Source: a virus (lineage: Duplodnaviria; Caudoviricetes). Taken from it: a stretch of DNA of 64,000 nt. Shown piece by piece: positions 15,894 to 55,573 of the stretch. The DNA is taken from positions 128,001 to 192,000 of the IMG/VR virus record IMGVR_UViG_3300032281_000616; one strand, 5' to 3'. Each line of letters starts with the position of its first letter. The first letter of the stretch is position 1. The translations under genes and the position numbers were made by a program. The notes beneath the pieces are model-generated. The model had not been told where the DNA came from. It was given only the letters and a program-made list of their open reading frames with translations, and did no database searches.

Positions 15894-16006
15894 ATCAAGT
15901 GATAGGACTCGAACCTATAATAATGCCGGTTGTGACGATGCGCTCGGGACAGTGCTATTTTACGCTTATCCTATTACTCACTTACCAGTGTGTCTGCCAC
16001 ACTTAA
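15894..16006 (-). ncRNA. tRNA-like RNA with expanded central region
   Basis: TTAAGTG/CACTTGA acceptor and perfect ATAGG-TTCGAGT-CCTAT T-arm; no canonical anticodon arm. Confidence 0.4.
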
Positions 16007-20761: not shown

Positions 20762-21082
20762 TTAGTGTTTAAAGACTTCGGGTAGAATAGCTTTCAATTG
20801 ATTATCGTATTTTGAATTCAATTCTTTGGTTTCTACAGTTTTATTACCTCCGATATTTACCAATGATTCAATCAACTTCACCCCTGCTTCCCCTTCGATG
20901 ATTTTGAAAGGTTCAAACCAACCTTGATAAGATTCAATATATACTTTATTACCTTTAAACTTCTCAACTTCACCCCATAAACAATATGGGAATTTATCAT
21001 AAGACCAGAATGCGTATAGTTTTTGATTCATATTATTTATAGGAAAGGAATGTTCTGACCGAATCGAAATTCGTTGAGTCAC
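20762..21082 (-). CDS. hypothetical protein
   Basis: KLYAFWSYDKFPYCLWGEV pattern; start uncertain. Confidence 0.7.
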   Translation of the reverse strand: MTQRISIRSEHSFPINNMNQKLYAFWSYDKFPYCLWGEVEKFKGNKVYIESYQGWFEPFKIIEGEAGVKLIESLVNIGGNKTVETKELNSKYDNQLKAILPEVFKH

Positions 21083-21235
21083 TTCAAATGCTTATTAGCA
21101 TCCGCGACTCATCAGATAACGTTACCATTATCACGAGGATTTACCCACATTGCTTTATCAGAATCACCCGACTTCATCATAGGCTTATATCAACCCCTAC
21201 TAGTTATTGATTAAATAACGTGGATGTTTAAAATG

Positions 21236-21310
21236 TGAGAGAGACAGGATTCGAACCTGCATCGATCCATTACGGTACTACGGAGTAGAATTCCGTTCCG
21301 ATACACTCCC
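21236..21310 (-). tRNA. degenerate tRNA-like gene with truncated D-arm
   Basis: GGGAGTG/CTCTCTC acceptor, ACGGA/TCCGT stem, long variable region, GCAGG-TTCGAAT-CCTGT T-arm. Confidence 0.4.
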
Positions 21311-21328
21311 ATTAAAATCTATTACTAT

Positions 21329-21565
21329 TTATGGTGGCAACTCAGGACCAACATAATCAAAAAATCCAGTTTCAGTATTATATGCTAAATTTGGATCTGT
21401 TAGTTCTCCAACGATATAATCAATATAATCATTGACTGCTTCTAGTTGTTCTCTAGAATATCGACATCCTTCAGATACGCTCTTATCAATATCAATATCA
21501 TTATCTCTTCCAGATAAGATCCATTCAACAATCTCTTGTTGAGTCATGTTTTGTTGTTTCAACAT
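21329..21565 (-). CDS. acidic hypothetical protein
   Basis: Promoter motif at exact spacing. Confidence 0.7.
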   Translation of the reverse strand: MLKQQNMTQQEIVEWILSGRDNDIDIDKSVSEGCRYSREQLEAVNDYIDYIVGELTDPNLAYNTETGFFDYVGPELPP

Positions 21566-21751
21566 AGTCTTATTATACTTTAGTGTTTTATGTGACCATT
21601 CTCTTTCAGATATCTAATGATAGCATCTTGGTCTGACTTTGTGTAATATCTTTTCAGTTTTCGTCTAGTTTGAATTGTATCCAAACCTTTGTATGAATTG
21701 ACAAAGGATTCATGGAATACTAAACCTTTGATGACAACACTCACAATAAAA

Positions 21752-21827
21752 TGGTCCTCCTAACCAGATTCGAACTGGTAACTAACGGTTTATGAAACCG
21801 CTACTCTGACCGTTGAGTTATAGGAGG
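21752..21827 (-). tRNA. tRNA with CAT anticodon, probably tRNA-Ile2
   Basis: Full 76-nt cloverleaf CCTCCTA..GCGGT-TTCATAA-ACCGT..ACCAG-TTCGAAT-CTGGT-TAGGAGG-A-CCA; C4/C5 and adjacent tilS favour Ile2. Confidence 0.9.
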
Positions 21828-21832
21828 ATATA

Positions 21833-22444
21833 TTACAAATAAAATTTCTTTAATACGACTTTCTCCAACCCTCTTCGTTCTTCGATTTTAGGAAGGATTT
21901 CATTTCTAATCCAGTTTCTTTCATATTTACTATCTGAATTGGTTTCATCAACTACTACATATCCAGATAATCCTCTTTTATCAACCCAATCCTCTAAATT
22001 AGATTTACTGTTTTTAATAAAAGGTCGCAGCAAAGTAAAATTATCAAACTCACTAATTTGTTGAATCGGTTTATATTCTGGACAACCTTTTAGACAATTC
22101 ATAATATACTGTTCAACACAATCACCTAGATGATGACAGACTATAATTGATTCACCAATCTCATCGAAGAAACTTAATCTCTCTTGTCTCAAATTATCTT
22201 CAATGTTCTTAGTGTATTTTACGCGACATTCACCAATTGTCAAATGAATTTTGTAGTCATCACAAAACTTTCGACAAACATCAACCATCTTTAGATTCTG
22301 TTCTCTTTGATTATGATTGAAGTGGATAGCTTTGAAATTATAACCTAATGTTAAAAGAAGATGAGAGCATGCTAAACTATCAACTCCACCAGAGATAGCA
22401 ACCGAAAATTGCTCAGGAATGATTTTTCTATTGATATGAATCAT
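21833..22444 (-). CDS. tilS: tRNA(Ile)-lysidine synthase, compact catalytic domain only
   Basis: PP-loop AISGGVDS, HFNH, HHLGD, LLRPF, DETNSDSKYERNWIRNEILP; start moved to ATG 22444. Confidence 0.88.
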   Translation of the reverse strand: MIHINRKIIPEQFSVAISGGVDSLACSHLLLTLGYNFKAIHFNHNQREQNLKMVDVCRKFCDDYKIHLTIGECRVKYTKNIEDNLRQERLSFFDEIGESIIVCHHLGDCVEQYIMNCLKGCPEYKPIQQISEFDNFTLLRPFIKNSKSNLEDWVDKRGLSGYVVVDETNSDSKYERNWIRNEILPKIEERRGLEKVVLKKFYL

Positions 22445-22459
22445 TATTGTATGAGATAG

Positions 22460-23193
22460 CCGCACCCGGACTCGAAAATACACTTTTAGACTAAATAGTA
22501 TTATGAAGATGCTTAATTGTGATAGGTGTAATGAAGAATTCGAAGTTTCATATGACCAATGGAAGAATCGGAGGAGTAAAAAGAAAATCCATAATAGGAA
22601 TAATTATTGTTCGCTGGAATGCAGATTATTGGGACAAGGAAAAAGCCCAAGAATAGAAGTTTCGTGTGAAAGTTGTGGTTGTTTTTTTATGAAACATTAT
22701 AGCGAGGTTACGAGAACCCCTAAAAATTTTTGTTCTAGATCTTGCTCTGCTACATATAACAACACTCACAAAACAAAGGGTAATCGCAGAAGTAAGTTAG
22801 AAAAATGGTTAGAAGAACAATTAACTGTGTTATATCTAGAACTAGAAATTCTATATTCGAACAAAACCACCATTAATTCTGAGCTTGATATTTATATACC
22901 ATCCCTAAAATTAGCCTTTGAACTTAATGGAATATTCCATTATGAACCAATATATGGTGAAGATAAGCTAAATCAAATCCAAAACAATGATAATAGAAAA
23001 TTTCAGGCTTGTTTAGAGAAAGGTATCGAATTATGTATTATCGATACTTCTCAACACAAATACGTTAAGCCTTCTACTTCACAAAAATATCTTGATATTA
23101 TCACACATTTAGTTAACTCTAAATTAGAGTCATCCAAAACAGACTACGTGGAAGTAGTGTGATTTCCTGTTTCTGACCGCACCCGGACTCGAA
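22460..23193. mobile_element. endonuclease cassette flanked by 17-bp direct repeats of the tRNA 3' end
   Basis: CCGCACCCGGACTCGAA at 22460-22476 and 23177-23193. Confidence 0.75.
22503..23162 (+). CDS. Zn-finger plus PD-(D/E)xK (Vsr/DUF559-like) homing endonuclease
   Basis: CDRC..YCSLEC, CESC..FCSRSC; SKLE..ELDIYIPSLKLAFELNGIFHY. Confidence 0.8.
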   Translation: MKMLNCDRCNEEFEVSYDQWKNRRSKKKIHNRNNYCSLECRLLGQGKSPRIEVSCESCGCFFMKHYSEVTRTPKNFCSRSCSATYNNTHKTKGNRRSKLEKWLEEQLTVLYLELEILYSNKTTINSELDIYIPSLKLAFELNGIFHYEPIYGEDKLNQIQNNDNRKFQACLEKGIELCIIDTSQHKYVKPSTSQKYLDIITHLVNSKLESSKTDYVEVV

Positions 23194-23292
23194 CCGGGAA
23201 GCCTTTCGGCGGCAGATTTTCGACAAGGTATAATATATTTCACTTATACCCTATTAGAAAGTCTGCGATGTTTACCTTTTCATCATACGGCC
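23174..23292 (-). tRNA. tRNA-Leu (probably UAA) interrupted by a 38-nt insert in the anticodon loop
   Basis: GGCCGTA/TGCGGTC acceptor, A73, long variable arm, CCCGG-TTCGAGT-CCGGG; GCAGA/TCTGC stem encloses 45 nt instead of 7. Confidence 0.75.
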
Positions 23293-23497
23293 ATTGATTT
23301 TTAGTTATCCTACATATTCTTCAGTGTCAATATCAATCAATTCATTGTCGTAAACTGATCCATCCTCTTCATTGAATACACATTCCATATCCATGATCTT
23401 ATCATTGAGATCATCTTCATCTTCAGCATTGATAAAGACATTAAATTTCATTGTTACGATGTATTGCTTCATGTCAGTAGTTTACTTTAGTGTTTCA

Positions 23498-26400
23498 TCA
23501 ATCAAAATCGAATCCAAGAAGAAAATACCAATTTCCGATCTTAGCTTCTCTCAATCCACCCCTAGAAAATTCATATCCAATTTGGGAATCATATACATAA
23601 TCCCAATCATCTGGTCTATAACCTTCACAACAAGCGAAGACTGGATATGATTCGTAATAGTCCTCTCTAGCTCCCATCTTATTATTGATCTCTCCTAGAG
23701 AGTATGGAGATGATGGTTTGGATGATTTAATCCTTTCAGCTATTTCATCTGCTTTCTTATAGATCTCATCAGCGATAGGTTGATATTCTTTAGGCCAACC
23801 TTTACGTGATTGATAATGATTATAATCATGAACCCATTGAGGGAAATCAGATATTGTTCTGAAGTTCATATCAAAAGATTTGGTTCAACATATCCATAAC
23901 TCTTTCCTTGAGCCTAACATCCCAACCGGGAACTCTATTGATTCTTTTTGTTTTAAGGATACCTTTGTTTGTTACTGTATTAACCGCACATATCCTGACA
24001 GCATCAGTACCGCACTTCTTCGATACACCATTAGGAGAAATTGAAGAGTAAACAAATAGACTGATATTTGGATTCTTTTTAGTTTGATAAGCGTATACAT
24101 ATTCATTACCCTTAATGGTTTTGCTCCAGCCTTTATCATGCTTTAGAAGAGCATCCATTTCCAATTCTGTAATAGTGCAATAAGTAGCAGCCATATTAGG
24201 ATTGTGAGTTAGTGTTTCATCAGTTTTCTTTAACGTCTTTCAATCCAAGAATAAACATAAAAGCGCACACGATTCGAGTGGCGAATTTAGCGAATCCTTC
24301 CACATAAAACATATCAAATACAGATAGACTACCAGACCTGATAGCCCATGAGTATCCAATAAGACCAACAATCATACCTAAGACATATCCTAGACCGTTT
24401 CTAGTATGTCCAAGGATTAAATAAGCACCACCAAGACCACTAATGAATCTTAGGCATGTACCAAAGCCTCCCAGACTAAAATCCAAGAAACACCCAAAAG
24501 CCAAAAATAGTAATCCAATAATGATTCGAAATCCACCTAAAATATTTATTATTGAATTCATAATTATACAACCCCGAGGGGTTTAGTAGGGATAGAACCT
24601 ACTAAACCCCTCCATCCCACCTTTAGACGCCGATTTCCACCACAGTCTCGACATCTGAATCATCAGAACTTCCTGATACTTCTGCCTTAAGTTGTGCAGT
24701 AAGTTCAGCCAACTTCTTACGAAGACGCTCTTGCTTCTTAGCTTCCTTAGCAGCAGCCTTTTCTTCTTCTGTAAGAACCACCTTCTCAACCTTAACCTTC
24801 TTAGCAAGATTAAGACCATCTACCACGATGGCAAAGGTATCCACTTCTTGTGGATCACCATTATCATCAGGCATAAGCCCTACTTGATTGTTGAATGCTA
24901 CTTCTAGGAGAAGAGTGATTACACCTTTATCAGTAAGGTTATAATCTTCCTTCAACTTTTGAAGTGTTGCCTTTTGTTCTTCGCTAACATTCACTACGAC
25001 TTGTTTAGCGACCGACTTCTTTTCTGTTTCAGTTTCCATACCGTTATTTTAGTTTAGTGTTTAATCGTTTATTTTCCTACCGTGAAAGCAATGATTAGAG
25101 CAATCGCAATGATCAACAGAACCAAAGCAAAGCTAATCCAAATGGGGGATAGAACCCACCACCATGACCATGCAATATATCCCGTAAGTTTTAGGCCAAT
25201 GAAAAGCACAGTCAAAAGACCTACAAATCCAATGCCTCCAGATGATGTTGTAGTATTATTACTCATATTGTTATTTTATTCTAGTGTTTAATCAATATAT
25301 TCTTCAGGATTATCCTTATAAGCTTGTTCCATATCAGACTCTTGTTTCTTAGTAAACCAATCCATCATATAAAGACCAAGAGCATCCCTAAGAGCAGGGA
25401 TAAATCCATTGTGTTTGGAATATTCTTTAAAATCAGAAGATGGTGGTTCCCAATAACCATAAGATTCATACGTTTCGTAACCAACTTCGAACTTTAAGAA
25501 GTTTTCTGATGCGATTACAATCACACCATCCAAAGATAGACCATAGGGAGTGTCATAAGACATAAAAGAATTCTCAACCCTTTCGAATTGACCAAATTTC
25601 TCATTAATAGATTTCAGAAATCCGTTGAATGATTTACGAACACTTTCACAATACGAGATATTACGAAGGATGTTTCGAACTTCTGATTCAGTTCCCACAC
25701 CATAAGTAAGTTCAGCATCATGCCAATCTTTATCAGGTGTTTTTACTAGAAGGTTTTCCCAACTACAATCATCTTCTAGGATAGTCTCAACTTTGAACTC
25801 GATCATGGTGTGAGTTTATGTTAGTGTTTCATCCTTCAACGTCTTCCGGTATATCAAGGATATTATCAGCCTTGATGGTGAAGCATAGAGGACGATCTTC
25901 ATCAGTAGGACTAAGAAGTTTCTTAGCTTCTGATGGGGGAAGATACTCAGCAAACTTAGCCTTATCAACAATCTCACCGTTTACATAATACACAGACTTT
26001 GGAATATGATTATTAGCTTGGGATGGATAAAGACGAAGATAAAGATTATCCTTATGTTCGATGACATGAGGAAACCATGATTTCTTTGTCAATTTGTCCA
26101 CATACCACGACCCCCATGGTAGTTCACCAACTTCACCACGTTCACCAGATGCAATTCCTTCCTTCACAGCAGAAAGATTAGCATAATTTACACCAGCTTG
26201 CACCACGGCAACTGTGTGTTTCTCAAGGATAACACCTTCTTTCTTAAAAGAAGCAGCAGGTGTAGGATTGCTTTTCCATGATGCTTTTACAAATTGACCC
26301 TTACAAGAAAGGATTTTGTTGCGAATAGCTTCAGCACTTAGGGGATTAGTTGTCGTTGTCATATCGTTAGTATATCTTAGTGTTTTATTGATACTTTGTA

Positions 26401-31891: not shown

Positions 31892-31920
31892 ATTATCAAA
31901 AATTATTATCAGAAAACGTT

Positions 31921-32000
31921 TATACTCTGCTCTGCCATCTGAGCTATACCTCCGTTTTATATATGTGGAGGCAGGATGATTCGAACATCCGACACGAGGG
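31921..32000 (-). tRNA. tRNA halves in permuted order (3' half upstream of 5' half)
   Basis: GGATG-TTCGAAT-CATCC-TGCCTCC-A, 13-nt linker, GGAGGTA-TA-GCTC-AGATGGCA-GAGC; the acceptor strands pair fully. Confidence 0.45.
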
Positions 32001-32176
32001 ATTCATTCCTTAGTATTTGCTGTATGTTTTCTTATCAAGTTACATTTTTTGCTACGTGTCCTAGCCAATTAGACGATACCATCTTTCATAGAAAGCGATG
32101 GCAGTGTTAACGGGAGTTGCTTTAAGTTTTGTTTCGAACATGTTGTTAGTTTAACTTAGTGTTTTACGAAGTCAAG

Positions 32177-41470: not shown

Positions 41471-44087
41471 TTAATGTTTACTATTCTTCCAAACAGTATC
41501 AAATTCTTTTTGACTCATCCACCAAATATGTTCAATTTCTGGATTACCCGGATTGGTTTCGTTTGTCCAAATAGAATATCCATCACCATTTAAGATTAAC
41601 AGATATGGATAACCTTCTGGAGGATTTTCTAAAGAATATTCTTCAGAATGACATAATTGACAACCTTCACCATCGGACCACGACCACTCACATTGATAAA
41701 ATTCTGGAAGAGGACTGTCTTCGTAGAATAGACTTCTATCTGTTTTGATACAAAGAATATACTCTCCATCTTTTGGGAGACTTTGTTTTGTCGATTTAAA
41801 TTCTAGTTTCATATTATCGTTTAATAGCTTCGTTGATGATTTTCAAATCTGATACTGAAATACAAAATGTTGAGAGATTACCTTTGCATTCTTTCGAATG
41901 AAATGATACACCGGGATCATAAGCATGGACTACAAACCCTAAAGATTCCATAGGCTCAAATAAAGCATACCACTCATTCAATGCTTGAAATATTGGTTTG
42001 TATTCCCCATCTGGTGTTCTCATCGTTTCCATGACAATATAATATTTTAGTGTTTAATCATCAGCTTTTATCCTAAGCTCATAATCATTTTTATCTAAAT
42101 GTTTTTGAACAATAGAAACTACTTCGATTGCTAATGGTGTGACTCCGATATCTGTAACTTGTTTTTTGTTTCTTAATATCACACCTGATATATCATCAAC
42201 CATATCCATTGTCCAATCTACATCTATTGGTAATAATTTGGTTCGTATATCAATCATTAATTTCTGTATCTGGTAGTTTCCAATTCTTAAGTTCCTTTTC
42301 ATTGAGAGAACGAATATGCTTCGCATCAATGAAACGCTTCACATTTTTATTATTCTCTTTAATGGTATACTTGATATAATTATAACCTCTTTTAAAGGGA
42401 CTATATTTTCCATCAAGTTCCCACCAAGTATCAATACCCATATCGGTTGATGCTTTGAAAAATAATCCTTTATCTTTGAAGACAACAAATCCCTCATTGA
42501 AAGTCACGCGAGTCTTTGGATCTCTGATTCTACCCGAAAACCATCTAGATTTACTACGCTCACAAAGAATACCATTATGAACATAAAATCCACTCACTTC
42601 TTGAGCCCCCCAAAAACCATTAGAATAAATCTTACCATCCTGTTCGAAAGTATGGAGTTCAACCTTCCACTTCATACTCTCCTCATGTCCAACCTTCTTA
42701 ACAATTTCGGAATAGACATCATCCCATTTTTTTCCAAGATTCATTCGAAGAAATCGATCAAATGCATTAGAAAAATATTTACCCCGATAAACCAAGTTAC
42801 TCTTTCCTTTAGATGGAAGTTCATCCAATCGGTCTTCATCTTTGATCTGATGAATTTTAGGATTCTTTTTGATCATATCGAAATCATAGCGCGATTGATC
42901 ACCTTTCAAAAAGTCTTTCTTCTTATGTTTATCGGGGCGCATATTGATATTATAGCTTAGTGTTTTATCAAAATTCTATGTAAGCGTAATTGTTTGTTAT
43001 TTTCCTCTTCTTTGCTGTTTCTGATATATCTCTTAGATACTTCACACATACATTATCATTAGGGAATCCTGTTATACCTTGAAGAACAATCTCACCGTTT
43101 TCTGATACTTTACCGAAGCACATTAATTCAGGATGTTCATATAACATCACCGTTATTTTACTGGTATTTGGTTCTAGTTGAAGGTTACATCCTTCTCCAC
43201 ACGATTCACTTAAATGATAATAATCGACAGCATCAAAATTAGCCCACCCATCAATAAAATGAGATTTCTTAACATTTAAAATATCAAAGTTTTTCATGGA
43301 TGGGTATATGGGGTGAATCTATTGATTATAGATTCACCCCTCCTAAAATTAGAAACTATGAAACTTAGAATTCCTAAGCTCAATACATAGATCACGAGTA
43401 TCTACATTAACCCACTCAGCCAAATGCTGATTCTTACGGATTAGAACTCTATTCATACCACCAACCAATCGAAAACTTGAGTCTGGGTTTCGTTCCACTG
43501 TAATATTATACAGTTTACGTGTCTTGAGTTGATCTGGATTTCGCATCCAAACCTTATCCTTACGGTTGCTTCTTTTCATTGTATTATTTGTCTTTATTGT
43601 TTGTCTTTTCATAATTCTACGTCTCTTGTTCTTCCCGGACCATTTTCAAGAAAATCTTCGACAGCAACCATATCATCTAAATCAGATAATTTTTGTTTTA
43701 GTTTATGATTTTCTTTCAATAACTCATCCAAGACCACCTGATCCGGGTTTTGGTCTTTTACTTTATTCACTTCATCTACATGTTTATCAATTTTATTGAA
43801 CAACATTTCCGCTTTTTCCGCTACTTCTTTCATAAATTCTCAGAAGACCTGATTCTAACACGCCTTCCGCTGGAGTCAATAACCCAGAATGATTTTTGTG
43901 GGGATTCCAAAAATTCATCAATAGCTATCTCATCCTGTAGATCTTCTATTTCTTCAATTAGATTGTCTACTTCCTTTTTATAGTCTATTGGAGGATAAAC
44001 TAACTCAAAGGAGTCGATACTTTTTTCTATATCGAGCTTCTTTTTGAGAAGTTCTTTATATTTCTGCTCGTAATCTTCTTGAAGCAT
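41471..44087 (-). CDS. block of hypothetical genes (41471..41812, 41814..42032, 42054..42329, 42250..42942, 42968..43297, 43349..43612, 43609..43833, 43830..44087)
   Basis: Abutting minus-strand ORFs, two with the promoter motif. Confidence 0.7.
43310..43340 (-). terminator. 13-bp perfect hairpin
   Basis: GGGGTGAATCTAT-tgatt-ATAGATTCACCCC between genes. Confidence 0.55.
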
Positions 44088-44746
44088 TAGTGTGTCCTAT
44101 TGTGGTCAAGGATGCGTATCGATTTTGTAGACATCACATCTTCAATCTCTGAATACGTCCAAACATCATTCTTATAATCCCAACCAAGATCCAATCCTTT
44201 TTGATCTGCTGATTCTGGTCTACGTCCTTTATCTTGCATATGAGAATGACCAGACAGCATCCATGAGCCTCTAGCGTCTCCTACCCATATCCTCAATGGA
44301 AAATGATTCATGATAATCTGCTGTTTACCAATCCAGATTTCTTGATGATTACCAAGAAATACTACATTATTCATGCGAAGAGGATAAATTTCAATATCAT
44401 CTCTTCCGAATTGTTTGATCATTTCTTGCTTATAGAGACGATACATTTGTGATTCATGATTACCGAAAAGCATCATGATATTTTGACACTTGATGCTATT
44501 CAACCAACCAATCACTTCTCCATCGGTAGCCGACAGAAAGCTATCTCCAAGAATCCATAAGATTTGATTCTCTCCAACCTTAGCATTGATCTTCTCTCTG
44601 ACATCATTATAAGATTCTTCTGGTGAGTTGTAACCCCTCATCTTCCAAATAGGAACTGGCCAACTTGGATCATGATAATTATGAAAATCTGTAGACCAGA
44701 AATGATCGTTTCGATTTTCGTATTTGTATTTTAGTATCTTATACAT
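44087..44746 (-). CDS. calcineurin-like metallophosphoesterase
   Basis: TDFH, LGDSF, GNHE, NHFP, GHSH. Confidence 0.85.
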   Translation of the reverse strand: MYKILKYKYENRNDHFWSTDFHNYHDPSWPVPIWKMRGYNSPEESYNDVREKINAKVGENQILWILGDSFLSATDGEVIGWLNSIKCQNIMMLFGNHESQMYRLYKQEMIKQFGRDDIEIYPLRMNNVVFLGNHQEIWIGKQQIIMNHFPLRIWVGDARGSWMLSGHSHMQDKGRRPESADQKGLDLGWDYKNDVWTYSEIEDVMSTKSIRILDHNRTH

Positions 44747-44975
44747 TCTCTATTTCTTTAATGATTTCGTCAATCCCTTGAATGATTGTAACGTTTTCTC
44801 CATCCTCAACAACTAAGCGAGGGACAGATCTAATTTCATGTTTAGTGAAAAAATCCCTGTCCCCAGCCAAGCTATAATCCTTCACCTCTACCTCTAGACC
44901 AAGTTTGGATAGCTTAGATTTAAGCATCGAACATGGTCCACATGAGGGAGATATACATAAGGTATTTTTTTTCAT
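44739..44975 (-). CDS. glutaredoxin/thioredoxin-like protein
   Basis: SPSCGPC and RSVPRLV. Confidence 0.8.
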   Translation of the reverse strand: MKKNTLCISPSCGPCSMLKSKLSKLGLEVEVKDYSLAGDRDFFTKHEIRSVPRLVVEDGENVTIIQGIDEIIKEIENV

Positions 44976-45153
44976 ACCCACAAATGGTAACACACCCAAA
45001 GGTGAAGTCAAGGTAAAAATAAACCCACTGTGCTTGAGATAGTCTTATTGTCCACGCGACCTTCGGACAACTCCTGCACTCGTTTGATTACTTTACCCAT
45101 ATCCTTCTTAGAAGTTGCTCCTAATTCTAGGATTGTGTTCTTAACCATCATAA

Positions 45154-45390
45154 TCAATTTTCTCCCTCCATTTTATAAATTTCATCCGACAAACTATCAT
45201 ATAAATGAATAAGTCTTTTGCTTACACAATTCTCATCATGTTTAATATCACTAATAGAATTCATACTACGATTTCGACAAAATATACAAGTATTTGTTAA
45301 ATCCCACATACCAGATGTTTCAATATAATTGTAATTATTGGATATACTATCAACAACATCTCTCAAATCTTCTAAATCTTGTATGAACAT
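45154..45390 (-). CDS. hypothetical Zn-binding protein
   Basis: CIFC...H..NC; promoter motif at exact spacing. Confidence 0.65.
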   Translation of the reverse strand: MFIQDLEDLRDVVDSISNNYNYIETSGMWDLTNTCIFCRNRSMNSISDIKHDENCVSKRLIHLYDSLSDEIYKMEGEN

Positions 45391-45412
45391 ACTCGTATTA
45401 TATCTTAGTGTT

Positions 45413-46483
45413 TTATAATTCTGATTCTATTGCAGATTTGATAAGCTTATCTTCCACTACCTTGTTGTCTAGGGTAACGAACCCGTAGGATTCCCGCCAA
45501 TCTTGCCAGTGTTGCATGATACACATAGCTTGATCCTTTCGAGTGAATGAATCACCTCTGATACCATCGATGACATGATCAACCTTCTTCATCTTTTCTA
45601 AGACTTTATTGTAAGCAGTAACGATCTTGAACATATCATCTTTGATTTTCTCAGCTATCTCAAAATCCATAGTGAATTTTACAAAATTATAAAAATCCTC
45701 ATATTTTGTAAACTTCTCAGTAGTCATAAACAAATCGAGAACTTGGTTAATATTCTTGATACCAGTAGCGAGTGAATGTAGAGATAAATATAAGTCCGCT
45801 TTAATCTTCTTAAGTGTATTTCCATCTGGTGAATATAAAACTACACCCTCCGCGTGTTCCCACACTTTAATATCCATAATACACTCTTCCACTGTTTTGT
45901 AGTGATATCTTTTTGGTCGAGATATATTCCATTTCTGAGCATATGAATCAACCTCGTCCTGTGGAAACATTATAGCAGTCTCATTATCTACGATTGCTAG
46001 TAATGTTAATGTTGGTATATTGTGTTCTCTCAAAACAATAATCCTACTTGGTCCAGTGTGTTCAAAGATTACAGAATGTTTACCATCTCTAACGAAGTTC
46101 TTAATATCTGGATAAAATTCGATCAACTTATGGACTTCTGGACCCGTTTCTTGAGTAAAAACCGATTCAACTCCTCTTGTTCTCAAAATCATTTGATTAT
46201 TGTGACATGAAAATATAATTGTCGATCCATCAATCTTATGCAATGCTTGAACGGGCCAAGAATGATCCCATGATTGAAATTCAGGATCTTCATGCCAATT
46301 TTTAAATTTAGGCAACGATTGAGAAAGAACCTTATTATCTGACTTACGAACGATGCATGAACGAAATCGTGCATTTTCATCAGTCCACTTACAACCAATA
46401 TGGTTCGGGGTGATAAGCCAGCAATCATCTCCTGCGATAACACAGTCTTTGTAAGTGAATTCTTCAGTCGTTGGTAGCTTCAT
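45413..46483 (-). CDS. RNA ligase, T4 Rnl1-like
   Basis: SLPKFKN, motif I HKIDGS, ILRTRG, FEHTGP, EGVV, LKKIK. Confidence 0.8.
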   Translation of the reverse strand: MKLPTTEEFTYKDCVIAGDDCWLITPNHIGCKWTDENARFRSCIVRKSDNKVLSQSLPKFKNWHEDPEFQSWDHSWPVQALHKIDGSTIIFSCHNNQMILRTRGVESVFTQETGPEVHKLIEFYPDIKNFVRDGKHSVIFEHTGPSRIIVLREHNIPTLTLLAIVDNETAIMFPQDEVDSYAQKWNISRPKRYHYKTVEECIMDIKVWEHAEGVVLYSPDGNTLKKIKADLYLSLHSLATGIKNINQVLDLFMTTEKFTKYEDFYNFVKFTMDFEIAEKIKDDMFKIVTAYNKVLEKMKKVDHVIDGIRGDSFTRKDQAMCIMQHWQDWRESYGFVTLDNKVVEDKLIKSAIESEL

Positions 46484-47604
46484 ACTCAGCATTATGGTTT
46501 AGTGTTTTATCAAGTAACACCACCGTTTTATTATCTACCCAATAATACTCTTGAGCATTTTCGTCAACAAATCTGTTCCATGCTTCTTGTAAATAATCTG
46601 GTGTATTGGGAATTTTTGGGTAATCTTCGCCAATTTCACCGATATTCTCAAAATGCCTTGAAATCATTTCATCTAAATCACAACCATTGATAGTGTAATG
46701 TTTAGTAGATCCCATTACATACTCTGGAAGAGGATAATCATAATCCCAACAATCTCTAAGATCATCTACACCACCATAATAGAAAGTGTCCCCATCAAAG
46801 ACAGGTTGCCAATAATCGGCTTCATCTACCTTTATAGCACTATCATAGATTCTCTTATCCCTAGCCTCACAATAGGCATTCATAGCCTTGGAATTACACA
46901 TTTTAACCTCTTCTTGTGATAGATATTTCTCAAGAACTTGTTTTTGCCAATATTCCATTGTATATTTGGGAACTTTATCAATACCATCTTGTGCAATAAA
47001 AGATGATTGTGTTTCAGGATTGAATGCGATATTTTTATACTTTACCCCATCCTTCAACTCTGGATTAATCCAATTATTAACGACTTTAAGAATCTCTTCC
47101 CATCTCTCTTCAGAGAAGAGTGGTTGAAAATATTCCAGAGGATAATTTGTTAGTTGAATATAGTTCCCGAGTTTATTGTTTTTCATACTTAGCCTTCAAT
47201 TCTTCTAATTTTTTACGTTCTGCTGCTTCTTGTGCAGCCGCTTCTTCTTTATCCCAGATATCTTTCCATTTCTTCCACTCTTTCAACTCTTCGGAATGTT
47301 TTTTCTTATCTTTATTATATTTTCTTAATTCAGATTTATAGTTTGGATTCTCGATATCCTCTTCTGAAAATTCGATCAAATATGCTTCGATAGATGGAAT
47401 ATCTGATGGATAATAACAACACCCATAATCGTGATCTAAAGACAGTTTATATCGTCTACCTTCTTCAAAGATCAATTCGTCTCCATCACTCACTCTAACC
47501 TTAGATAATTCACTATATGCTGGGATAGTTTTATTCGGTTTTTGTGTGAGTAATTTAGGCGGCCAAGTAGCACGAAACCACTTTGGATATTTAGATTTAG
47601 CCAT
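46464..47604 (-). CDS. two hypothetical proteins (46464..47186, 47173..47604)
   Basis: Long abutting ORFs between ligase and kinase. Confidence 0.7.
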
Positions 47605-47606
47605 AC

Positions 47607-48008
47607 TTATCGTAGTTTAAGATTTTCTCTAATGGTTTTCTCTTGGCGTTTCAGAGTTTCCTCTGGTACCGAGTGTACATCCCTACCACCGTGCCTATTT
47701 TCAAGCACAATAAAGGTCACAATGAACCCAAGATCTTCAGCTTGTTTCACATACTTGTTCCAATCAGAGGGTTTAGCATTTACATTAGCGATGATGATAT
47801 CCTTATCGGTTCCCAAAGCATCAACAAATTTGTTCCAACAATATCCATGAGCTTTCCCAAGACCCTCGGGATACCACTTATAATTACCTCCCTTATCAGT
47901 GAAGTAATCATCAGCACAGCATACTAAGGCATCAGGAAAAAGATTACAAAAAGTAGTCTTACCCGCTCCAGATACACCCCGAAGTACAATTAAATTTCTT
48001 TGTTTCAT
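47607..48008 (-). CDS. P-loop polynucleotide kinase-like protein
   Basis: LIVLRGVSGAGKTT, CADDYF, HSVPEETL. Confidence 0.85.
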   Translation of the reverse strand: MKQRNLIVLRGVSGAGKTTFCNLFPDALVCCADDYFTDKGGNYKWYPEGLGKAHGYCWNKFVDALGTDKDIIIANVNAKPSDWNKYVKQAEDLGFIVTFIVLENRHGGRDVHSVPEETLKRQEKTIRENLKLR

Positions 48009-48009
48009 A

Positions 48010-48617
48010 TTATCGATTCCTTTTAGCTTTTGCTTTCTCTTGCCTAATCAACTTAGCTTCTTGCTTATTTGGAATATGTTCTCTGGTTGATAAGACTTCT
48101 TTCAATCTATCAAAATAATTACTATAGAGTTGTAAAGAAATTTCTGCTTCTTCTAAAAGATATCGTCTATCCTCTGCAACACCTTCCGCCTTTGTTTTAT
48201 AGGCACGGATAGTCTCAAAATAAGACATCAATTCTCTTGTATTCCATTTTTCAATCTCTTCTATAGGATACTCATTCCAACATTCTCTTTTTGACATAAT
48301 TTTATTATACTCTAGTGTTTAATAATTTCTATTTTAGTTTCCTCGGTCACTTTAGCCTTTTTATTATACAACAAATCACCATGTATATTGAACCACCAGA
48401 TACCCATAGATTCTTGAAGAGGGTATTCGTCTTCTTCATTGTATGGAAGCTCATCATAAGCTTCGTATGCGGCATCTAATCCATCCTTTTCAAAGACATC
48501 GATGACTTTAATCAACGCATCCCGATACTTCTTTTTCTTAAAGATTCTACGGATTCTATTTCTCTCCTCTTCGGGGTCGAATTCAATTGTAGTTACCTTA
48601 GTCTTGATTATTTTCAT
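48010..48617 (-). CDS. two hypothetical proteins (48010..48297, 48312..48617)
   Basis: Abutting ORFs. Confidence 0.7.
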
Positions 48618-48787
48618 TTATGTGAATTATATGCCTTTTCTAAACCGTTCGTTGAGTCTTCTTTGGTTTTACCTATAACAGATATACCTAAAGGTTGATA
48701 ATATGCTATCCAAAAGGATTCAGCTTCTAAATATCTGATATCTTTCGCTATTTCAGAAAAATCTGGTAAAGTCTTTTTATCTGTCAT
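48614..48787 (-). CDS. 57-aa HicB-like antitoxin-fold protein, not in ORF track
   Basis: EAESFWIAYYQPLGISVIGKTKEDSTNGLEKAY; stop overlaps the next ATG (ATGA). Confidence 0.45.
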   Translation of the reverse strand: MTDKKTLPDFSEIAKDIRYLEAESFWIAYYQPLGISVIGKTKEDSTNGLEKAYNSHK

Positions 48788-48788
48788 A

Positions 48789-48836
48789 TTATCGCAATTC
48801 TATGGTTTTTGGCCAATCTGGAAATACTGATCCGTT
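48789..48836 (-). pseudogene. stranded original 3' end of the 2H phosphoesterase gene
   Basis: NGSVFPDWPKTIELR* versus functional NSAYPSWPKTIEIR. Confidence 0.8.
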
Positions 48837-49812: not shown

Positions 49813-49816
49813 AATA

Positions 49817-50278
49817 CTATTTAGTCATTGTGGTAGCATTTTTTTCTCTAATTTCGATAGTTTTTGGCCAACTGGGATAAGCTGAATTAAATTTTCCATT
49901 CGCTATAGTCAAATGAATTCCTTTAAATCTTTCACCATCTACAACTTCAACCTTCTTCTTGATCTTATCTAGTTCTTGCGAATACACTCTAAGGTAATAC
50001 ATTAAGAATCCCTTGGTATAACCACCTTCAACAATGTTCTCATCATAATCAAACTCGATAGTTTTACCACGATAATACATAGCTTTCTCCCAGTTGATTT
50101 TCTTGTTAAATTTTTGAGAATATAAAGTGATATGAGCCCCGTGCATTGGTCTGTTCATTCTGATCCAATACTTACGCTGAATAAACCAATAATAAAGCTC
50201 AACAAGATCTTGAGAAACATCAAGAACCATACGACCTTTGTGTGGTTGAACATTTATAACTCCAGACGCCTTTAACAT
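49817..50278 (-). CDS. 2H phosphoesterase
   Basis: Two HxT motifs: GAHITL and IHLTI. Confidence 0.7.
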   Translation of the reverse strand: MLKASGVINVQPHKGRMVLDVSQDLVELYYWFIQRKYWIRMNRPMHGAHITLYSQKFNKKINWEKAMYYRGKTIEFDYDENIVEGGYTKGFLMYYLRVYSQELDKIKKKVEVVDGERFKGIHLTIANGKFNSAYPSWPKTIEIREKNATTMTK

Positions 50279-53394: not shown

Positions 53395-54179
53395 AATTAA
53401 CCAATAAATTTGAAAATATACCGGGTGTTTATGTTATAACAAATTTAATCAATGGTAAAGTTTATGTCGGAGAAAGTTTAAAAATACATAAACGTATTTC
53501 GGAACATAAATCTAGAAAAGACAGACTTATAAGTAAAGCGTTTAAAAAATATGGTATTGAAAATTTCACAATTTATATAGAATATATGCCAAATTTTTCT
53601 AAAAATGATTTGTGGGATTTGGAAGAACAGTTAATTTTAAAATTTGATTCATTGTCTCCAAAAGGATATAATATATGTTCGCGTGGCGATGGTCCTGTTG
53701 GCTTGAAACATTCACCAGAATCCAAGCTCAAAATGAGTGAATCACAAAAACTAATAGCAAAATACGGTTCCGAAAATCCACTCAGCAAGCCTGTGTATGT
53801 TTATGGAATAAATGGAAAATTTATCAAACATTTTATAGGTTATACTCAAGCAGGGAGAGAATTGGGGTTATCTCATTCGACTATTATAGGTGTTTTAGAT
53901 GGAACACATTTGCAAAGCAAAGGATACATATTCAAAAAAGAATATATGGGGAAAGAAATTACACCAATTTCAAATAACGAAATCGAAAGCAAATCAACAA
54001 AAAGAAAAGTTGCTCGCTGTGATATAGAAGGTAATATACTAGAAAAATTCGATTCTGTTTGGGATGCAGCAGTATCCACTAATACAAGTAGACAAGCCAT
54101 CACAGGAGCGTTGAGGGGATTAACCAAAAAATCAAAATTTCGACTATGTAAAGGATTCAGATGGAAGTATTTAAATTAA
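53391..54179 (+). CDS. GIY-YIG homing endonuclease with NUMOD3/NUMOD1 repeats
   Basis: PGVYVITNLINGKVYVGES; KHSPESKLKMSES; KPVYVY..NGKFI. Confidence 0.9.
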   Translation: MKLTNKFENIPGVYVITNLINGKVYVGESLKIHKRISEHKSRKDRLISKAFKKYGIENFTIYIEYMPNFSKNDLWDLEEQLILKFDSLSPKGYNICSRGDGPVGLKHSPESKLKMSESQKLIAKYGSENPLSKPVYVYGINGKFIKHFIGYTQAGRELGLSHSTIIGVLDGTHLQSKGYIFKKEYMGKEITPISNNEIESKSTKRKVARCDIEGNILEKFDSVWDAAVSTNTSRQAITGALRGLTKKSKFRLCKGFRWKYLN

Positions 54180-55573
54180 TTTTCATCTTCTAGATTTAAT
54201 TCATCTCTATCCCTTTCCTCAGATTCCCTAACTAAGAAATTTGGACTCTTATATTTAAAAACTGGTTTCGTTTCTCGACTATTGATTTTTATAACAACAC
54301 CCTCATTAACAACACCTGTTGTACAATATTCACAAATTTTATCGAGATATTTTTCTTTTGTCTTCTTCATCCAATTATCACCCCAAGCATCATTAAGCGG
54401 AATATCTGGAAATAAATCTTTGGCCTTCCCTTTAAAATAAACAGGAACAGTTTTTAATCCAATTTCTTCACAAAGCCTTTCAATTTCTTCCCATGTAAAT
54501 TCATAATAATTTCCACATTCATCAACTTTACTAGCCCTGTATACCCATAATTCGGATTCTCCTTTGATCACCCCATAATCATACTGACTTTGAATAGTTT
54601 TGTTTGGAGAAGCCCATCCTAAAATTTCACCAAATATTTCGACACCCTTTGGAAGCTTTCCCTCTATTAGTTCGGCGTGTTTCCCATAAAGATTATCTGT
54701 ATATTTCCCATCTCGTCTATTTTGTAATATATTTCTACTGGAATACACAAGCTTATATTCAGTCTTTGGTATATTCAACCCAAAATATGATAATACACTT
54801 TCGCTTAATCCTAAATTTCTTTTACATAAGACGTAACCAGCACAAAAACTCGTTCCGTGAATTTTTGATGTGATTGTTATATCATCATCTGGTTGTAGTA
54901 TCCAACTATTTTTGTAAAAATTCTCTGTTTTATAGTGTTGTCTGAATTGTCCATCAACAATAAGAGACTTGATACCATCGTCCTTAGATAGACCATAGTA
55001 CCACTTAACTACAGGGAAAATGGTAGTCCTAACAGTGCGAGGGAAAATACCCAAGGTTGTATTAATCCACTTAGGAATTTTATTTTTGGATGTATTATTC
55101 TCATTGTTAGACTTAGCCTCTGGTCTAATGTATTTGGTTACAAGTAAATCCTCACCAACAGTATCAAATGATTCACCCAAGGCAAAAATTCTAGGAGAAA
55201 TGTTGTAATATTTGGCCAATTCCTCAATCTTATACAAGAACCCTTGAGATGGAATTCCGCGCAATTTGACAGCTTTTACACGATTACCCTTTTGCGAGAA
55301 AAATCCCTTAGTCTTCCCATCAGCATTAAGAATTTCCTTATCATATAAATTAGCCCATGACAAGAACTTAGGCGATAGACAAGATTCTACAGGGAAGTAA
55401 ACACATAGGTCATCCTTCACATAAGATCCTTTTCCTAATACCACAGTATTACCAAAAATTTCTGTCAACTCCAACTTATCCGCATTTGGATGATTTGTAA
55501 TTTCTCCAATTTTGACTACTGTAGCCAAGTAATTCGGATCTGCGTTTTCTGATACTTTCAATTTAGTTTCCAT
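54176..55573 (-). CDS. RNA ligase, DRB0094-like family
   Basis: HPNADKLE..VYFPVES, VKAVKLRG..SQG, TSKIHGTS, FGEI, NEGVV, FKYKSPNF. Confidence 0.85.
   Translation of the reverse strand: METKLKVSENADPNYLATVVKIGEITNHPNADKLELTEIFGNTVVLGKGSYVKDDLCVYFPVESCLSPKFLSWANLYDKEILNADGKTKGFFSQKGNRVKAVKLRGIPSQGFLYKIEELAKYYNISPRIFALGESFDTVGEDLLVTKYIRPEAKSNNENNTSKNKIPKWINTTLGIFPRTVRTTIFPVVKWYYGLSKDDGIKSLIVDGQFRQHYKTENFYKNSWILQPDDDITITSKIHGTSFCAGYVLCKRNLGLSESVLSYFGLNIPKTEYKLVYSSRNILQNRRDGKYTDNLYGKHAELIEGKLPKGVEIFGEILGWASPNKTIQSQYDYGVIKGESELWVYRASKVDECGNYYEFTWEEIERLCEEIGLKTVPVYFKGKAKDLFPDIPLNDAWGDNWMKKTKEKYLDKICEYCTTGVVNEGVVIKINSRETKPVFKYKSPNFLVRESEERDRDELNLEDEN

What the first reader, a model, noticed from the sequence alone, without database searches (positions are those of the whole stretch)
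23174..23292. tRNA-Leu with a 38-nt hairpin intron in the anticodon loop
Seen: an intact Leu-type body, but the anticodon stem encloses CTT[TCTAATAGGGTATAAGTGAAATATATTATACCTTGTCG]AAAA. The insert has a 9-bp stem (AGGGTATAA/TTATACCTT). Removing 38 nt restores CT-TAA-AA. Established: the bacterial tRNA-Leu(UAA) group I intron sits at this 34/35 position and ends in G as this insert does, but it is far longer. Inference: this is a protein-spliced mini-intron (nuclease plus the phage RNA ligases), a collapsed group I relic, or a decoy shielded from host anticodon nucleases.
Basis: partly seen in the sequence, partly recalled or inferred. Interest (0 to 1): 0.8.

Follow-up and report, generated by a model that had tools for sequence, protein, structure and literature searches.

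The report
Hairpin mini-intron in phage tRNA-Leu
A leucine tRNA gene of a 202-kb freshwater T4-like phage is split in the middle of its anticodon by a conserved 38-base hairpin, one of a small family of apparently mobile mini-introns in related phages that are too small to splice themselves, so these viruses may cut and rejoin tRNA in a way not yet shown in bacteria or their viruses.

Summary
On the minus strand at 23292..23174 lies a long-variable-arm tRNA-Leu body. Its anticodon loop holds a 38-nt hairpin between U34 and A35, and removing the hairpin gives the loop CUUAAAA (anticodon UAA).

The insert is not a decaying insertion.
- Two related freshwater contigs carry the tRNA and insert with no differences over 131 nt, while their flanks differ by 5-11%.
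- More distant relatives (TilS 73-77% identical) carry homologous 33-39-nt hairpins at the same 34|35 position in three different tRNAs: long-arm Leu(UAA), short-arm tRNA(UAA), and the tRNA(CAU) next to tilS.
- Sister phages carry insert-less alleles, and these fix the junction to the nucleotide.
- The hairpin stem covaries: 6 of 10 pairs change on both sides.
- All six pre-tRNAs share one architecture: anticodon stem, C32·A38, a 4-bp helix holding both junctions, a small internal loop, then a 10-13-bp hairpin.

Known splicing routes do not fit. I found no group I core, no BHB motif, and no EndA, RtcB or Tpt1 homologue. The phage does encode an Rnl1-like ligase, a PNK-like kinase, phosphoesterases, a second ligase and a CCA enzyme.

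Best reading: a mobile mini-intron removed by proteins. Splicing itself is not shown.

Lak megaphage tRNA introns (Devoto 2019) are the only published parallel. This scan has also noted 'tRNA-shaped' mini-introns in other giant phages; this insert has a different shape.

The parts
23174..23292 (-). Interrupted tRNA-Leu(UAA) gene, 119 nt. It has a long variable arm and A73, and CCA is not encoded.
   Evidence: ARAGORN with introns allowed; fold z = -4.99; sequence.
23259..23292 (-). 5' exon: acceptor 5' strand, D arm, anticodon stem 5' strand GCAGA, then C32 U33 U34.
23221..23258 (-). 38-nt mini-intron lying between U34 and A35.
   Evidence: Homologous inserts occur in L011 and L180. A contig in runs X1/X2 that matches the 3' exon (23182-23220, 4 mismatches) continues upstream as ...GGAGACTT, giving the uninterrupted loop CUUAAAA; the match stops exactly at 23220. 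It is an intron-less comparator from another organism, not an allele of this gene.
23174..23220 (-). 3' exon: A35-A38, anticodon stem 3' strand UCUGC, 13-nt variable arm, T arm, acceptor 3' strand, A73.
23244..23254 (-). 5' arm of the intron hairpin (intron nt 5-15).
   Evidence: MFE fold; covariation with L011 and L180.
23223..23233 (-). 3' arm of the intron hairpin (intron nt 26-36). The 10-nt loop is at 23234-23243.
23257..23260 (-). 5' strand of the 4-bp junction helix (U33, U34, intron U1, intron C2). The 5' junction lies inside it.
   Evidence: The same helix is present in all six family members.
23218..23221 (-). 3' strand of the junction helix (intron G38, A35, A36, A37). The 3' junction lies inside it.
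   Evidence: The pair between intron nt 2 and the last intron nt is C:G in four members and U:A in two.
22460..23176 (.). 717-bp homing-endonuclease cassette inserted in the tRNA's T-loop/acceptor region. It is flanked by the exact 17-bp repeats 22460-22476 and 23177-23193. The endonuclease ORF is 22503-23162 (+).
   Evidence: Repeat. PHROG HNH/homing endonuclease hits. Relatives in three runs lack exactly these 717 bp (joint 22459->23177).
21833..22483 (-). Phage tilS (PP-loop family; relatives are 203 aa). It served here as the synteny anchor for finding relatives.
   Evidence: Pfam PF01171; homologues P0001-P0063.
21752..21827 (-). Uninterrupted tRNA(CAU) just downstream of tilS. The tRNA at the same syntenic position in L007 carries a 39-nt mini-intron; L007's closest intron-less sequence homologue is the L180 tRNA(CAU).
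45413..46492 (-). Rnl1-like RNA ligase (gp63 type), the candidate sealing enzyme. Its role in splicing is inferred only.
   Evidence: phrog_562 at 3.6e-31; weak Pfam RNA_ligase match.
47607..48008 (-). Small P-loop kinase, polynucleotide-kinase-like, candidate 5'-end healing enzyme. Its role is inferred only.
   Evidence: PF13671; phrog_2071 and phrog_505.
44087..44746 (-). Metallophosphoesterase, candidate 3'-end healing enzyme. Its role is inferred only.
   Evidence: phrog_547; PF00149.
54176..55573 (-). Second RNA ligase (PHA02142 OB-fold plus RNA_ligase domain). An RlaP-family gene lies nearby at 52043-52819.

Best explanation
The 38 nt are a genuine intervening sequence in a functional phage tRNA-Leu(UAA) gene. 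It belongs to a small family of structured mini-introns of 33-39 nt. These sit between nucleotides 34 and 35 of several tRNAs in one clade of freshwater T4-like phages, and they come and go between otherwise homologous genes, so they behave like mobile elements.

In the precursor the insert extends the anticodon arm into a rod: anticodon stem, C32·A38, a 4-bp helix that holds both junctions (U33:A37, N34:N36, intron U1:A35, intron nt 2 paired with the last intron nt), a 2-3 by 1-2 nt internal loop, then a 10-13-bp hairpin.

Inferred, not shown: a protein endonuclease, phage or host and not identified here, recognises this helix and loop and cuts both strands either side of the U1:A35 pair. The phage's own toolkit then heals the ends and seals U34 to A35, giving the loop CUUAAAA. 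The candidates are a PNK-like kinase, phosphoesterases and an Rnl1-like ligase, the ligase type that reseals broken anticodon loops in T4. The mature tRNA would read UUA, the phage's commonest leucine codon.
For: Shown:
- Gene, insert and fold.
- Contigs of relatives in runs X3 and X4 have 0 differences and 0 gaps over 23177-23307. Their flanks differ by 44 in 900 nt on one side and by 54 plus 13 gaps in 493 nt on the other.
- Homologous inserts at 34|35 occur in L011 and L180 (long-arm Leu), L177 and L183/G002 (short-arm UAA), L007a (short-arm UAA) and L007b (CAU).
- Insert-less alleles fix the junctions. L180 tRNA(CAU) against L007b shows a clean 39-nt indel between C34 and A35. L008 against L177 shows a clean 39-nt indel at CTT^AAAA.
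- Covariation among the window, L011 and L180: 57 of 57 cells paired, and 7 of 19 pairs change on both sides (6 of 10 in the hairpin). Sliding the pairing register drops pairing to 33-49%.
- A covariance model built from those three finds L177 (E = 1e-6) and L007a (E = 3e-4).
- All six share one architecture, and all spliced forms fold as cloverleaves.
- UUA is 35% of Leu codons, and no other Leu tRNA is called in the genome.
- The ligase, kinase and phosphoesterase genes are present.

Inferred:
- The interrupted tRNA(CAU) in L007 sits beside an intact tilS. That module makes sense only if the tRNA is matured.
Against: - There is no RNA evidence: no spliced junction was seen, and no RNA run holding this DNA is listed.
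- No endonuclease candidate was identified. The two unknown ORFs between the kinase and the ligase gave no family or fold lead.
- Both junctions lie inside a helix with a 1-nt 5' stagger. This matches no nuclease I know; it is not RNase III geometry and not BHB.
- The ligase and kinase genes are common in T4-like phages without such inserts, so their presence does not discriminate.
- Bacterial LeuRS does not read the anticodon (my own knowledge). An unspliced tRNA-Leu could therefore still be charged and have some other use.
- Conservation of the 38 nt alone between near relatives is only suggestive (about 0.01-0.14 by chance at the flank divergence rates).
Confidence: 0.5

Rival explanations
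1. The insert is never removed. The rod-shaped anticodon arm makes a tRNA-like RNA that does not decode. It might act as a decoy or sponge for host anticodon nucleases or tRNA-binding defence proteins, or as a chargeable Leu carrier for a use outside the ribosome.
For: The rod is very stable. The genome holds other odd tRNA-like RNAs (a 113-nt one at 15894-16006) and a YrlA-like hit. Position 34|35 is where several known anticodon nucleases cut (my own knowledge). No splicing nuclease was found.
Against: The same insert type sits in three different tRNA species, and each has an insert-less allele at the same place in sister phages. This is the pattern of a phenotypically neutral intron, not of a purpose-built decoy. 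One of the three is the tRNA(CAU) partnered with an intact tilS. This is the genome's only tRNA for its commonest Leu codon. Removing the insert restores a canonical 7-nt loop in every case.
Confidence: 0.2
2. The insert is a collapsed relic of the bacterial tRNA-Leu(UAA) group I intron. It would be spliced by residual ribozyme chemistry or in trans by a group I core encoded elsewhere.
For: It sits at the same 34|35 position. The 5' exon ends in U and the insert ends in G in the window, L011, L180 and L177.
Against: Inserts are only 33-39 nt. No RF00028 match reaches the cut-off anywhere in the genome; the best is 13 bits against a cut-off of 50. L007a and L007b end in A, and L007b follows C34, so the U and terminal-G hallmarks are not family features. 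The only unpaired conserved bases are a 2-3 by 1-2 nt internal loop, which is too little for a catalytic core.
Confidence: 0.05
3. It is an archaeal/eukaryal-type intron cut at a relaxed bulge-helix-bulge motif, with the junction at the canonical 37|38 site.
For: A 4-bp central helix lies between two unpaired regions, and a 3-nt stretch follows it on the 5' strand. This loosely recalls BHB. ARAGORN placed one relative's intron at 37.
Against: The unpaired regions are 3x2 and 1x1 internal loops, not two 3-nt bulges. No EndA (PF01974) or RtcB homologue is in the phage. Splicing at 37|38 would give U37 and anticodons UUC, UUU or CUU on Leu-type and tilS-linked bodies. The insert-less alleles place the indel at 34|35 exactly.
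Confidence: 0.04
4. It is a DNA-level palindromic insertion (a MITE-like or hairpin element) that simply inactivated the tRNA gene. The gene would then be a pseudogene in the making.
For: The insert is a near-perfect hairpin with patchy presence among relatives. The region is a hot spot for mobile DNA: three unrelated homing endonuclease genes occupy the same spot in different phages.
Against: All six or seven interrupted genes keep perfect cloverleaves, whereas one insert-less copy (L008) is the decayed one. The window's gene has zero differences from relatives whose flanks have diverged. The insert always lies at 34|35 in three different sequence contexts. Compensatory changes keep both the stem and the junction helix. 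There is no target-site duplication.
Confidence: 0.08
5. It is a member of the 'tRNA-shaped' mini-introns noted by this scan in giant phages and seen in Lak megaphages. These would be excised by ordinary tRNA end-processing enzymes (RNase P and RNase Z), with the exons then joined by a phage ligase.
For: The stacked length of the hairpin (10-13 bp plus the terminal pair) is close to an acceptor/T-arm minihelix. L177 has 12 bp and a 7-nt loop. RNase P and RNase Z ends (3'-OH and 5'-P) would suit ATP-dependent ligases directly (my own knowledge).
Against: No T-loop-like sequence is present in any member, unlike the Lak introns, which contain GGTTCGAATCC-type motifs. There is no discriminator or CCA-like 3' tail. 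RNase P cutting at the foot of the insert's own helix would leave U1 on the 5' exon and give an 8-nt loop. Both junctions lie inside a helix in the precursor.
Confidence: 0.05

Closest known systems
'Enigmatic' tRNA introns of Lak megaphages (Devoto et al. 2019, Nat Microbiol, PMC6784885, Table S6)
   Same: They are inserts in the anticodon loops of phage tRNA genes. They are highly conserved where present and absent from the same tRNA in sister genomes. They have no Rfam class and no known splicing route in a bacterial virus.
   Different: The Lak introns shown are 79-93 nt and contain tRNA-like T-arm sequences. Their positions were predicted with a eukaryotic tRNAscan model. The inserts here are plain 33-39-nt hairpins with a conserved junction helix and internal loop. 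They are placed at 34|35 by insert-less alleles, and they occur in roughly 200-kb T4-like freshwater phages.
Group I intron of bacterial and plastid tRNA-Leu(UAA)
   Same: Same tRNA and same insertion point (U34|A35). U precedes the insert and G ends it in the window's copy.
   Different: It has no catalytic core, being 38 nt against about 250 nt, and gives no RF00028 match. Relatives break the U/G rule. The same insert type also sits in tRNA(CAU).
Archaeal/eukaryal protein-spliced tRNA introns (BHB motif, EndA/Sen endonuclease, RtcB or Trl1 ligase)
   Same: A short, non-catalytic intron in the anticodon loop that extends the anticodon arm. The proposed cut-heal-seal logic is the same. The phage ligase is of the Rnl1 type, the family related to the Trl1 ligase domain (my own knowledge).
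   Different: There is no BHB, and no EndA, RtcB or Tpt1 homologue. The junction is at 34|35 inside a helix, not at 37|38 in bulges. The host is bacterial.
T4 anticodon-loop repair (PrrC nuclease cut healed by Pnkp and sealed by Rnl1)
   Same: A broken anticodon loop is resealed by a phage Rnl1-type ligase after end healing. This phage carries an Rnl1-like ligase, a PNK-like kinase and phosphoesterases.
   Different: In T4 the cut is a host attack at a single site (33|34 of tRNA-Lys) and no RNA segment is removed. Here two cuts would have to remove 38 nt, and the nuclease is unknown.
SegB-type free-standing homing endonucleases in T-even tRNA gene clusters
   Same: A free-standing endonuclease gene is lodged in or next to phage tRNA genes and is polymorphic among relatives.
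   Different: That describes the neighbouring 717-bp cassette, not the 38-nt insert. The insert occurs with and without an adjacent endonuclease gene (L177, L180 and L007 have none next to the tRNA).

Membership tests
tRNA-Leu, bacterial long-variable-arm type | Cloverleaf with a 7-bp acceptor stem, a D loop with GG, a T loop of TTCGAGT type, and a long variable arm with its own stem | tested here: met
   ARAGORN structure and MFE fold. The variable arm is 13 nt with the stem GCC/GGC.
tRNA-Leu, bacterial long-variable-arm type | A73 discriminator and a 7-nt anticodon loop with U33 and a Leu anticodon | tested here: inconclusive
   A73 is present. The loop CUUAAAA exists only after the 38 nt are removed in silico. 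Removal in vivo was not tested.
Group I intron (Rfam RF00028) | Conserved catalytic core (P3-P9) detectable by the covariance model | tested here: not met
   The insert is 38 nt. The best RF00028 match in the whole genome is 13 bits against a 50-bit cut-off, and it lies elsewhere. There is no Rfam hit over the insert even at E <= 5.
Group I intron (Rfam RF00028) | U as the last exon base (U·G in P1) and G as the last intron base | tested here: inconclusive
   Met in the window, L011, L180 and L177. Not met in L007a (ends in A) or L007b (follows C34, ends in A).
BHB / EndA-spliced tRNA intron | Two 3-nt bulges separated by a 4-bp helix, with the junctions inside the bulges | tested here: not met
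   A 4-bp helix is present, but it is flanked by 1x1 and 2-3 x 1-2 internal loops, and the junctions fall inside the helix.
BHB / EndA-spliced tRNA intron | A splicing endonuclease (PF01974) and an RtcB- or Trl1/Tpt1-type completion enzyme available | tested here: not met
   There are no PF01974, PF01139 or PF01885 matches in the phage genome. The host genome is unknown and was not tested.
Phage tRNA introns of the Lak / 'tRNA-shaped' kind | An insert in a phage tRNA anticodon loop, conserved where present, with insert-less alleles in relatives | tested here: met
Phage tRNA introns of the Lak / 'tRNA-shaped' kind | The insert itself contains a T-arm-like or tRNA-top-half structure | tested here: not met
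   None of the six inserts has a T-loop motif. The Lak examples do.
Mobile intron (general) | Presence/absence polymorphism at homologous sites, and occurrence at the equivalent site of non-homologous genes | tested here: met
   Three tRNA species carry it. For tRNA(CAU) and the short-arm tRNA(UAA), close insert-less alleles exist and fix the junction. For the long-arm Leu, only more divergent uninterrupted Leu(UAA) genes were found (L178; X1/X2 contig).
Mobile intron (general) | A demonstrated mobility mechanism (homing endonuclease, reverse splicing or a transposase) | not testable with these tools
   Adjacent endonuclease genes are unrelated to one another and are absent next to several insert-bearing tRNAs.

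The most novel reading that the evidence does not exclude
These hairpins are the substrate of a so far undescribed enzymatic tRNA-splicing pathway in a bacterial virus. A dedicated endonuclease would recognise the junction helix and internal loop and cut either side of the U1:A35 pair. The phage Rnl1-type heal-and-seal enzymes would then rejoin the anticodon. The same chemistry, run in reverse or with help from nearby homing endonucleases, would let the mini-intron spread between tRNA anticodon loops.
Probability: 0.35. Interest if true: 0.9.

Novelty: new variant of a known kind. Interest (0 to 1): 0.75.

Why it matters
Protein-dependent tRNA splicing is regarded as a trait of archaea and eukaryotes. 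In bacteria and their viruses the only established tRNA introns are self-splicing group I ribozymes. A 33-39-nt insert cannot be one of those, yet selection keeps it intact inside the only tRNA for the phage's commonest leucine codon, and inside a tilS-linked tRNA in a relative.

If these inserts are spliced, phage RNA ligases, long seen as repair enzymes against host anticodon nucleases, would also have a routine job in tRNA maturation, and an unknown RNA endonuclease would be waiting to be found. If they are not spliced, the phage makes stable rod-armed tRNA mimics, which would be new in itself.

There is also a practical point. Standard bacterial tRNA finders miss these genes, so phage tRNA sets and codon-adaptation analyses are incomplete.

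Tried and rejected
**Searches that found nothing**
- BLASTN of the 1.3-kb region against GenBank phages: no match.
- Exact 30-mer of the tRNA 3' half in IMG/VR: none.
- Degenerate pattern of the window-type insert in IMG/VR and in metagenome contigs: none. A looser window-type pattern gave two chance hits with no tRNA context.
- rIIA tblastn against GenBank phages: best matches only 28-32% identical, so there is no cultured close relative.

**Scan of tilS neighbourhoods**
- ARAGORN with introns allowed on 174 loci (1.15 Mb): apart from L007 and L011, the six other intron calls were different odd tRNA-like RNAs, not this family. L177 and L180 came from four later look-ups.
- ARAGORN at 80% stringency gives 387 calls in the genome and is useless. 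At 90% most extra calls look spurious.

**Enzyme searches in the phage genome**
- EndA, RtcB, Tpt1, PNK3P and group I: absent.
- The two unknown ORFs between kinase and ligase (47173-47604 and 46464-47186) gave no PHROG or Pfam family. For 46464-47186 an Atlas search also gave no fold lead.

**Other items**
- RNA evidence: no RNA holder is listed for this DNA.
- The endonuclease genes next to the window and L011 tRNAs are unrelated, so no insert-specific endonuclease emerges.
- The promoter/terminator scan around the gene is no better than chance.
- RNase III geometry, RNase P/Z excision, a BHB cut at 37|38 and a 1-nt target-site duplication were each checked by hand against the junctions. None fits.
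- X2's 20 differences in 23177-23502: 17 are listed and all lie upstream of the tRNA. The other 3 were not shown, so I claim identity of the tRNA only for X3 and X4.
Full report
**What is there**

The window is part of a 202,205-bp IMG/VR phage genome with direct terminal repeats. The genome is about 34% G+C and T4-like in gene content. It encodes rIIA/rIIB, a Dda-like helicase, an Rnl1/gp63-like ligase, a second RNA ligase and a CCA-adding enzyme.

On the minus strand, 23292..23174 reads as a tRNA with these parts:
- a 7-bp acceptor stem (GGCCGUA/UGCGGUC, with two G·U pairs) and A73;
- a 3-4-bp D stem with a GG-containing loop;
- the anticodon stem GCAGA/UCUGC;
- a 13-nt variable arm with its own stem;
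- the T arm CCCGG-UUCGAGU-CCGGG.

Between the anticodon-stem strands lie 45 nt instead of 7: CUU, then 38 nt, then AAAA. Default ARAGORN and the Rfam tRNA model do not see the gene. The RNA folds as a cloverleaf with a rod-like anticodon arm (-45.6 kcal/mol, z = -4.99).

**Near relatives**

No cultured phage or IMG/VR record is close. Public runs do hold related DNA, and I laid four of them on 21000-25000.

- Contigs from two freshwater-metagenome runs of another study (X3, X4) match 23177-23307 with no differences and no gaps.
- The same contigs differ by 44 of 900 nt downstream, and by 54 substitutions plus 13 gaps in 493 nt upstream.
- The tRNA with its insert is thus an island of identity. 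For the 38 nt alone this is only suggestive.
- The same contigs, and one from X2, join 22459 directly to 23177. The 717 bp that carry the homing endonuclease ORF (22503-23162), flanked by an exact 17-bp repeat of the tRNA's T-loop-to-acceptor sequence, are therefore a polymorphic insertion.
- Short contigs from another organism match the 3' exon (23182-23220, 4 mismatches) and then continue as ...GGAGACUU. This is an uninterrupted tRNA-Leu(UAA), and the similarity stops exactly at the proposed 3' junction.

**More distant relatives**

The adjacent tilS gene gave a graded series of homologues at 86% to 28% identity. I fetched their contigs and 160 further tilS neighbourhoods, and scanned them all with introns allowed.

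Inserts of the same kind occur only in the closest clade (TilS at least 73% identical):
- L011 and L180 carry long-arm tRNA-Leu(UAA) genes with homologous 38-nt inserts.
- L177 and the 196.7-kb genome G002 (L183) carry a short-variable-loop tRNA(UAA) with a 39-nt insert.
- L007 carries two: a short-arm tRNA(UAA) with 33 nt, and a tRNA next to tilS with 39 nt.

ARAGORN mislabelled three of these as Phe(aaa), Lys(ctt) and Arg(ccg). Alignment to insert-less homologues settles the anticodons and the junctions:
- L007b against the L180 tRNA(CAU) is 66/74 identical in the exons, with a clean 39-nt gap between C34 and A35.
- L177 against L008 is identical on both sides of a 39-nt gap at CTT^AAAA.
- Uninterrupted UAA tRNAs also stand at this position in L176, L178 and L006.

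So one kind of insert sits at 34|35 in three different tRNAs, each with empty alleles in sister phages.

**Structure**

All six distinct precursors have the same layout in independent MFE folds:
- a 5-bp anticodon stem;
- C32 opposite A38;
- a 4-bp helix made of U33:A37, N34:N36, intron U1:A35, and intron nt 2 paired with the last intron nt (C:G in four members, U:A in two);
- an internal loop of 2-3 nt on the 5' side and 1-2 nt on the 3' side;
- a 10-13-bp hairpin.

Both junctions lie inside the 4-bp helix, one on each side of the U1:A35 pair.

Among the three 38-nt Leu inserts, every one of 57 cells is a standard pair. Seven of 19 pairs change on both sides, six of them in the hairpin, and sliding the register drops pairing to 33-49%. 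A covariance model built from those three recovers L177 and L007a. It finds no second copy in this genome and nothing among 100 of the remaining tilS loci (L025-L095, L119-L147); L148-L175 were not searched with the model.

Between the window and L011, the anticodon arm plus insert is 82-86% identical while the rest of the tRNA is about 60% identical. That could mean transfer of the insert together with flanking exon sequence, or stronger constraint on the arm. The L011/L180 pair does not show the same contrast.

**What it is not**

- *Group I.* The insert is far too small. There is no RF00028 match, and L007a and L007b lack the exon-U and terminal-G hallmarks.
- *BHB/EndA.* The unpaired regions are internal loops, not 3-nt bulges. 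A cut at 37|38 would give U37 and Glu or Lys anticodons on Leu-type and tilS-linked bodies, and would contradict the empty alleles. No EndA, RtcB or Tpt1 homologue is encoded.
- *RNase III.* The stagger is a 1-nt 5' overhang, whereas RNase III leaves a 2-nt 3' overhang.
- *RNase P/Z excision of a tRNA-shaped insert.* This was proposed by earlier agents of this scan for other giant phages and is consistent with the T-arm motifs in Lak introns. Here there is no T-loop motif and no discriminator, and the predicted cuts would be wrong.
- *Dead gene.* All interrupted genes keep perfect cloverleaves, and compensatory changes maintain the rod.

**What it most likely is**

It is most likely a mobile, non-catalytic mini-intron that is removed from the precursor.

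Arguments that it is removed:
- Its distribution is that of a neutral intron.
- This is the genome's only Leu tRNA, and UUA is its commonest Leu codon at 35%.
- In L007 the insert sits in the tRNA(CAU) that accompanies an intact tilS.

Arguments that proteins remove it:
- The conserved features are a short helix and a small loop at the junctions, while the hairpin top varies freely between subtypes.
- The phage encodes a PNK-like kinase (47607-48008), an Rnl1-like ligase (45413-46492), metallophosphoesterases, a histidine phosphatase, an RlaP-family protein, a second ligase (54176-55573) and a CCA enzyme with an HD domain.

These genes are common in T4-like phages, so they make sealing possible; they are not evidence that it happens. 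The endonuclease is unknown, and splicing itself is untested.

**Prior knowledge**

Full-text searches found only one report of introns in phage tRNAs: the 'enigmatic', highly conserved introns of Lak megaphages. Those are longer and contain tRNA-like motifs. A comparative review of jumbo-phage RNA repair does not mention them. This scan has flagged 'tRNA-shaped' mini-introns in other giant phages. I did not test those, and the present inserts lack their defining shape.

I therefore rate this as a new variant of a known but unexplained kind, with high interest because the splicing route would be new for bacteria and their viruses.

Noticed in passing
window 22460-23193: A 717-bp cassette carrying a homing-endonuclease-like ORF (22503-23162, + strand) sits inside the tRNA's 3' part, between exact 17-bp repeats. 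The downstream copy would give an alternative acceptor 3' strand (UGCGGCU-A). Relatives in three runs lack exactly these 717 bp. In L011 and L006, unrelated HNH and LAGLIDADG genes occupy the same spot.
   Followed up: partly
window 31893-32023 (-): A YrlA (bacterial Y RNA-like, tRNA-mimicking) covariance-model match at 34.6 bits, E = 2.8e-4, below the 69-bit gathering score. I did not look for an Rsr/Ro gene.
   Followed up: no
window 21236-21310 (-): An odd 75-nt tRNA (Rfam tRNA 33 bits) with an almost missing D arm and a long variable region. A relative's contig skips 21234->21315, so this element is also a presence/absence polymorphism.
   Followed up: no
window 15894-16006 (-): A 113-nt tRNA-like RNA with a perfect 7-bp acceptor stem and a canonical T arm, but a centre that does not form normal D and anticodon arms. 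ARAGORN calls it only at 90% stringency, as Ile(aat) with a 35-nt intron. It does not match the mini-intron model.
   Followed up: partly
window 44087-60000: A dense set of RNA end-healing and sealing genes: metallophosphoesterases (44087-44746, 58946-59680), an Rnl1-like ligase, two unknown ORFs, a PNK-like kinase, a histidine phosphatase (50976-51644), RlaP (52043-52819), and a ligase with a PHA02142 OB domain (54176-55573). GIY-YIG and LAGLIDADG endonuclease genes are interspersed.
   Followed up: partly
window 55888-55911 (+): A small hairpin, UACAUGAGUAAAAUAUUUUAUGUA, resembles the apical part of the intron hairpin (14.3 bits, E about 1). It lies in the gap just upstream of the second RNA ligase gene and overlaps the start of ORF 55891-56724. 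It may be chance.
   Followed up: no
G000 genome 119750-119845 (outside the window): A tRNA-Pro(UGG) of 96 nt with a long extra arm, in the main tRNA cluster. This is unusual for a Pro tRNA.
   Followed up: no
G002 (IMGVR_UViG_3300020048_000014) 193136-193210: This related 196.7-kb phage encodes a tRNA with anticodon CUA (amber-suppressor type). I did not check for TAG recoding.
   Followed up: no
L006:1466-1558; L002:9192-9338; L003:2071-2202; L100:246-345: Relatives carry other non-standard tRNAs: a tRNA(CAU) with a long variable arm (93 nt), and 100-147-nt tRNA-like RNAs with extra hairpins between the D and T arms. The clade seems prone to elaborated tRNA genes.
   Followed up: no
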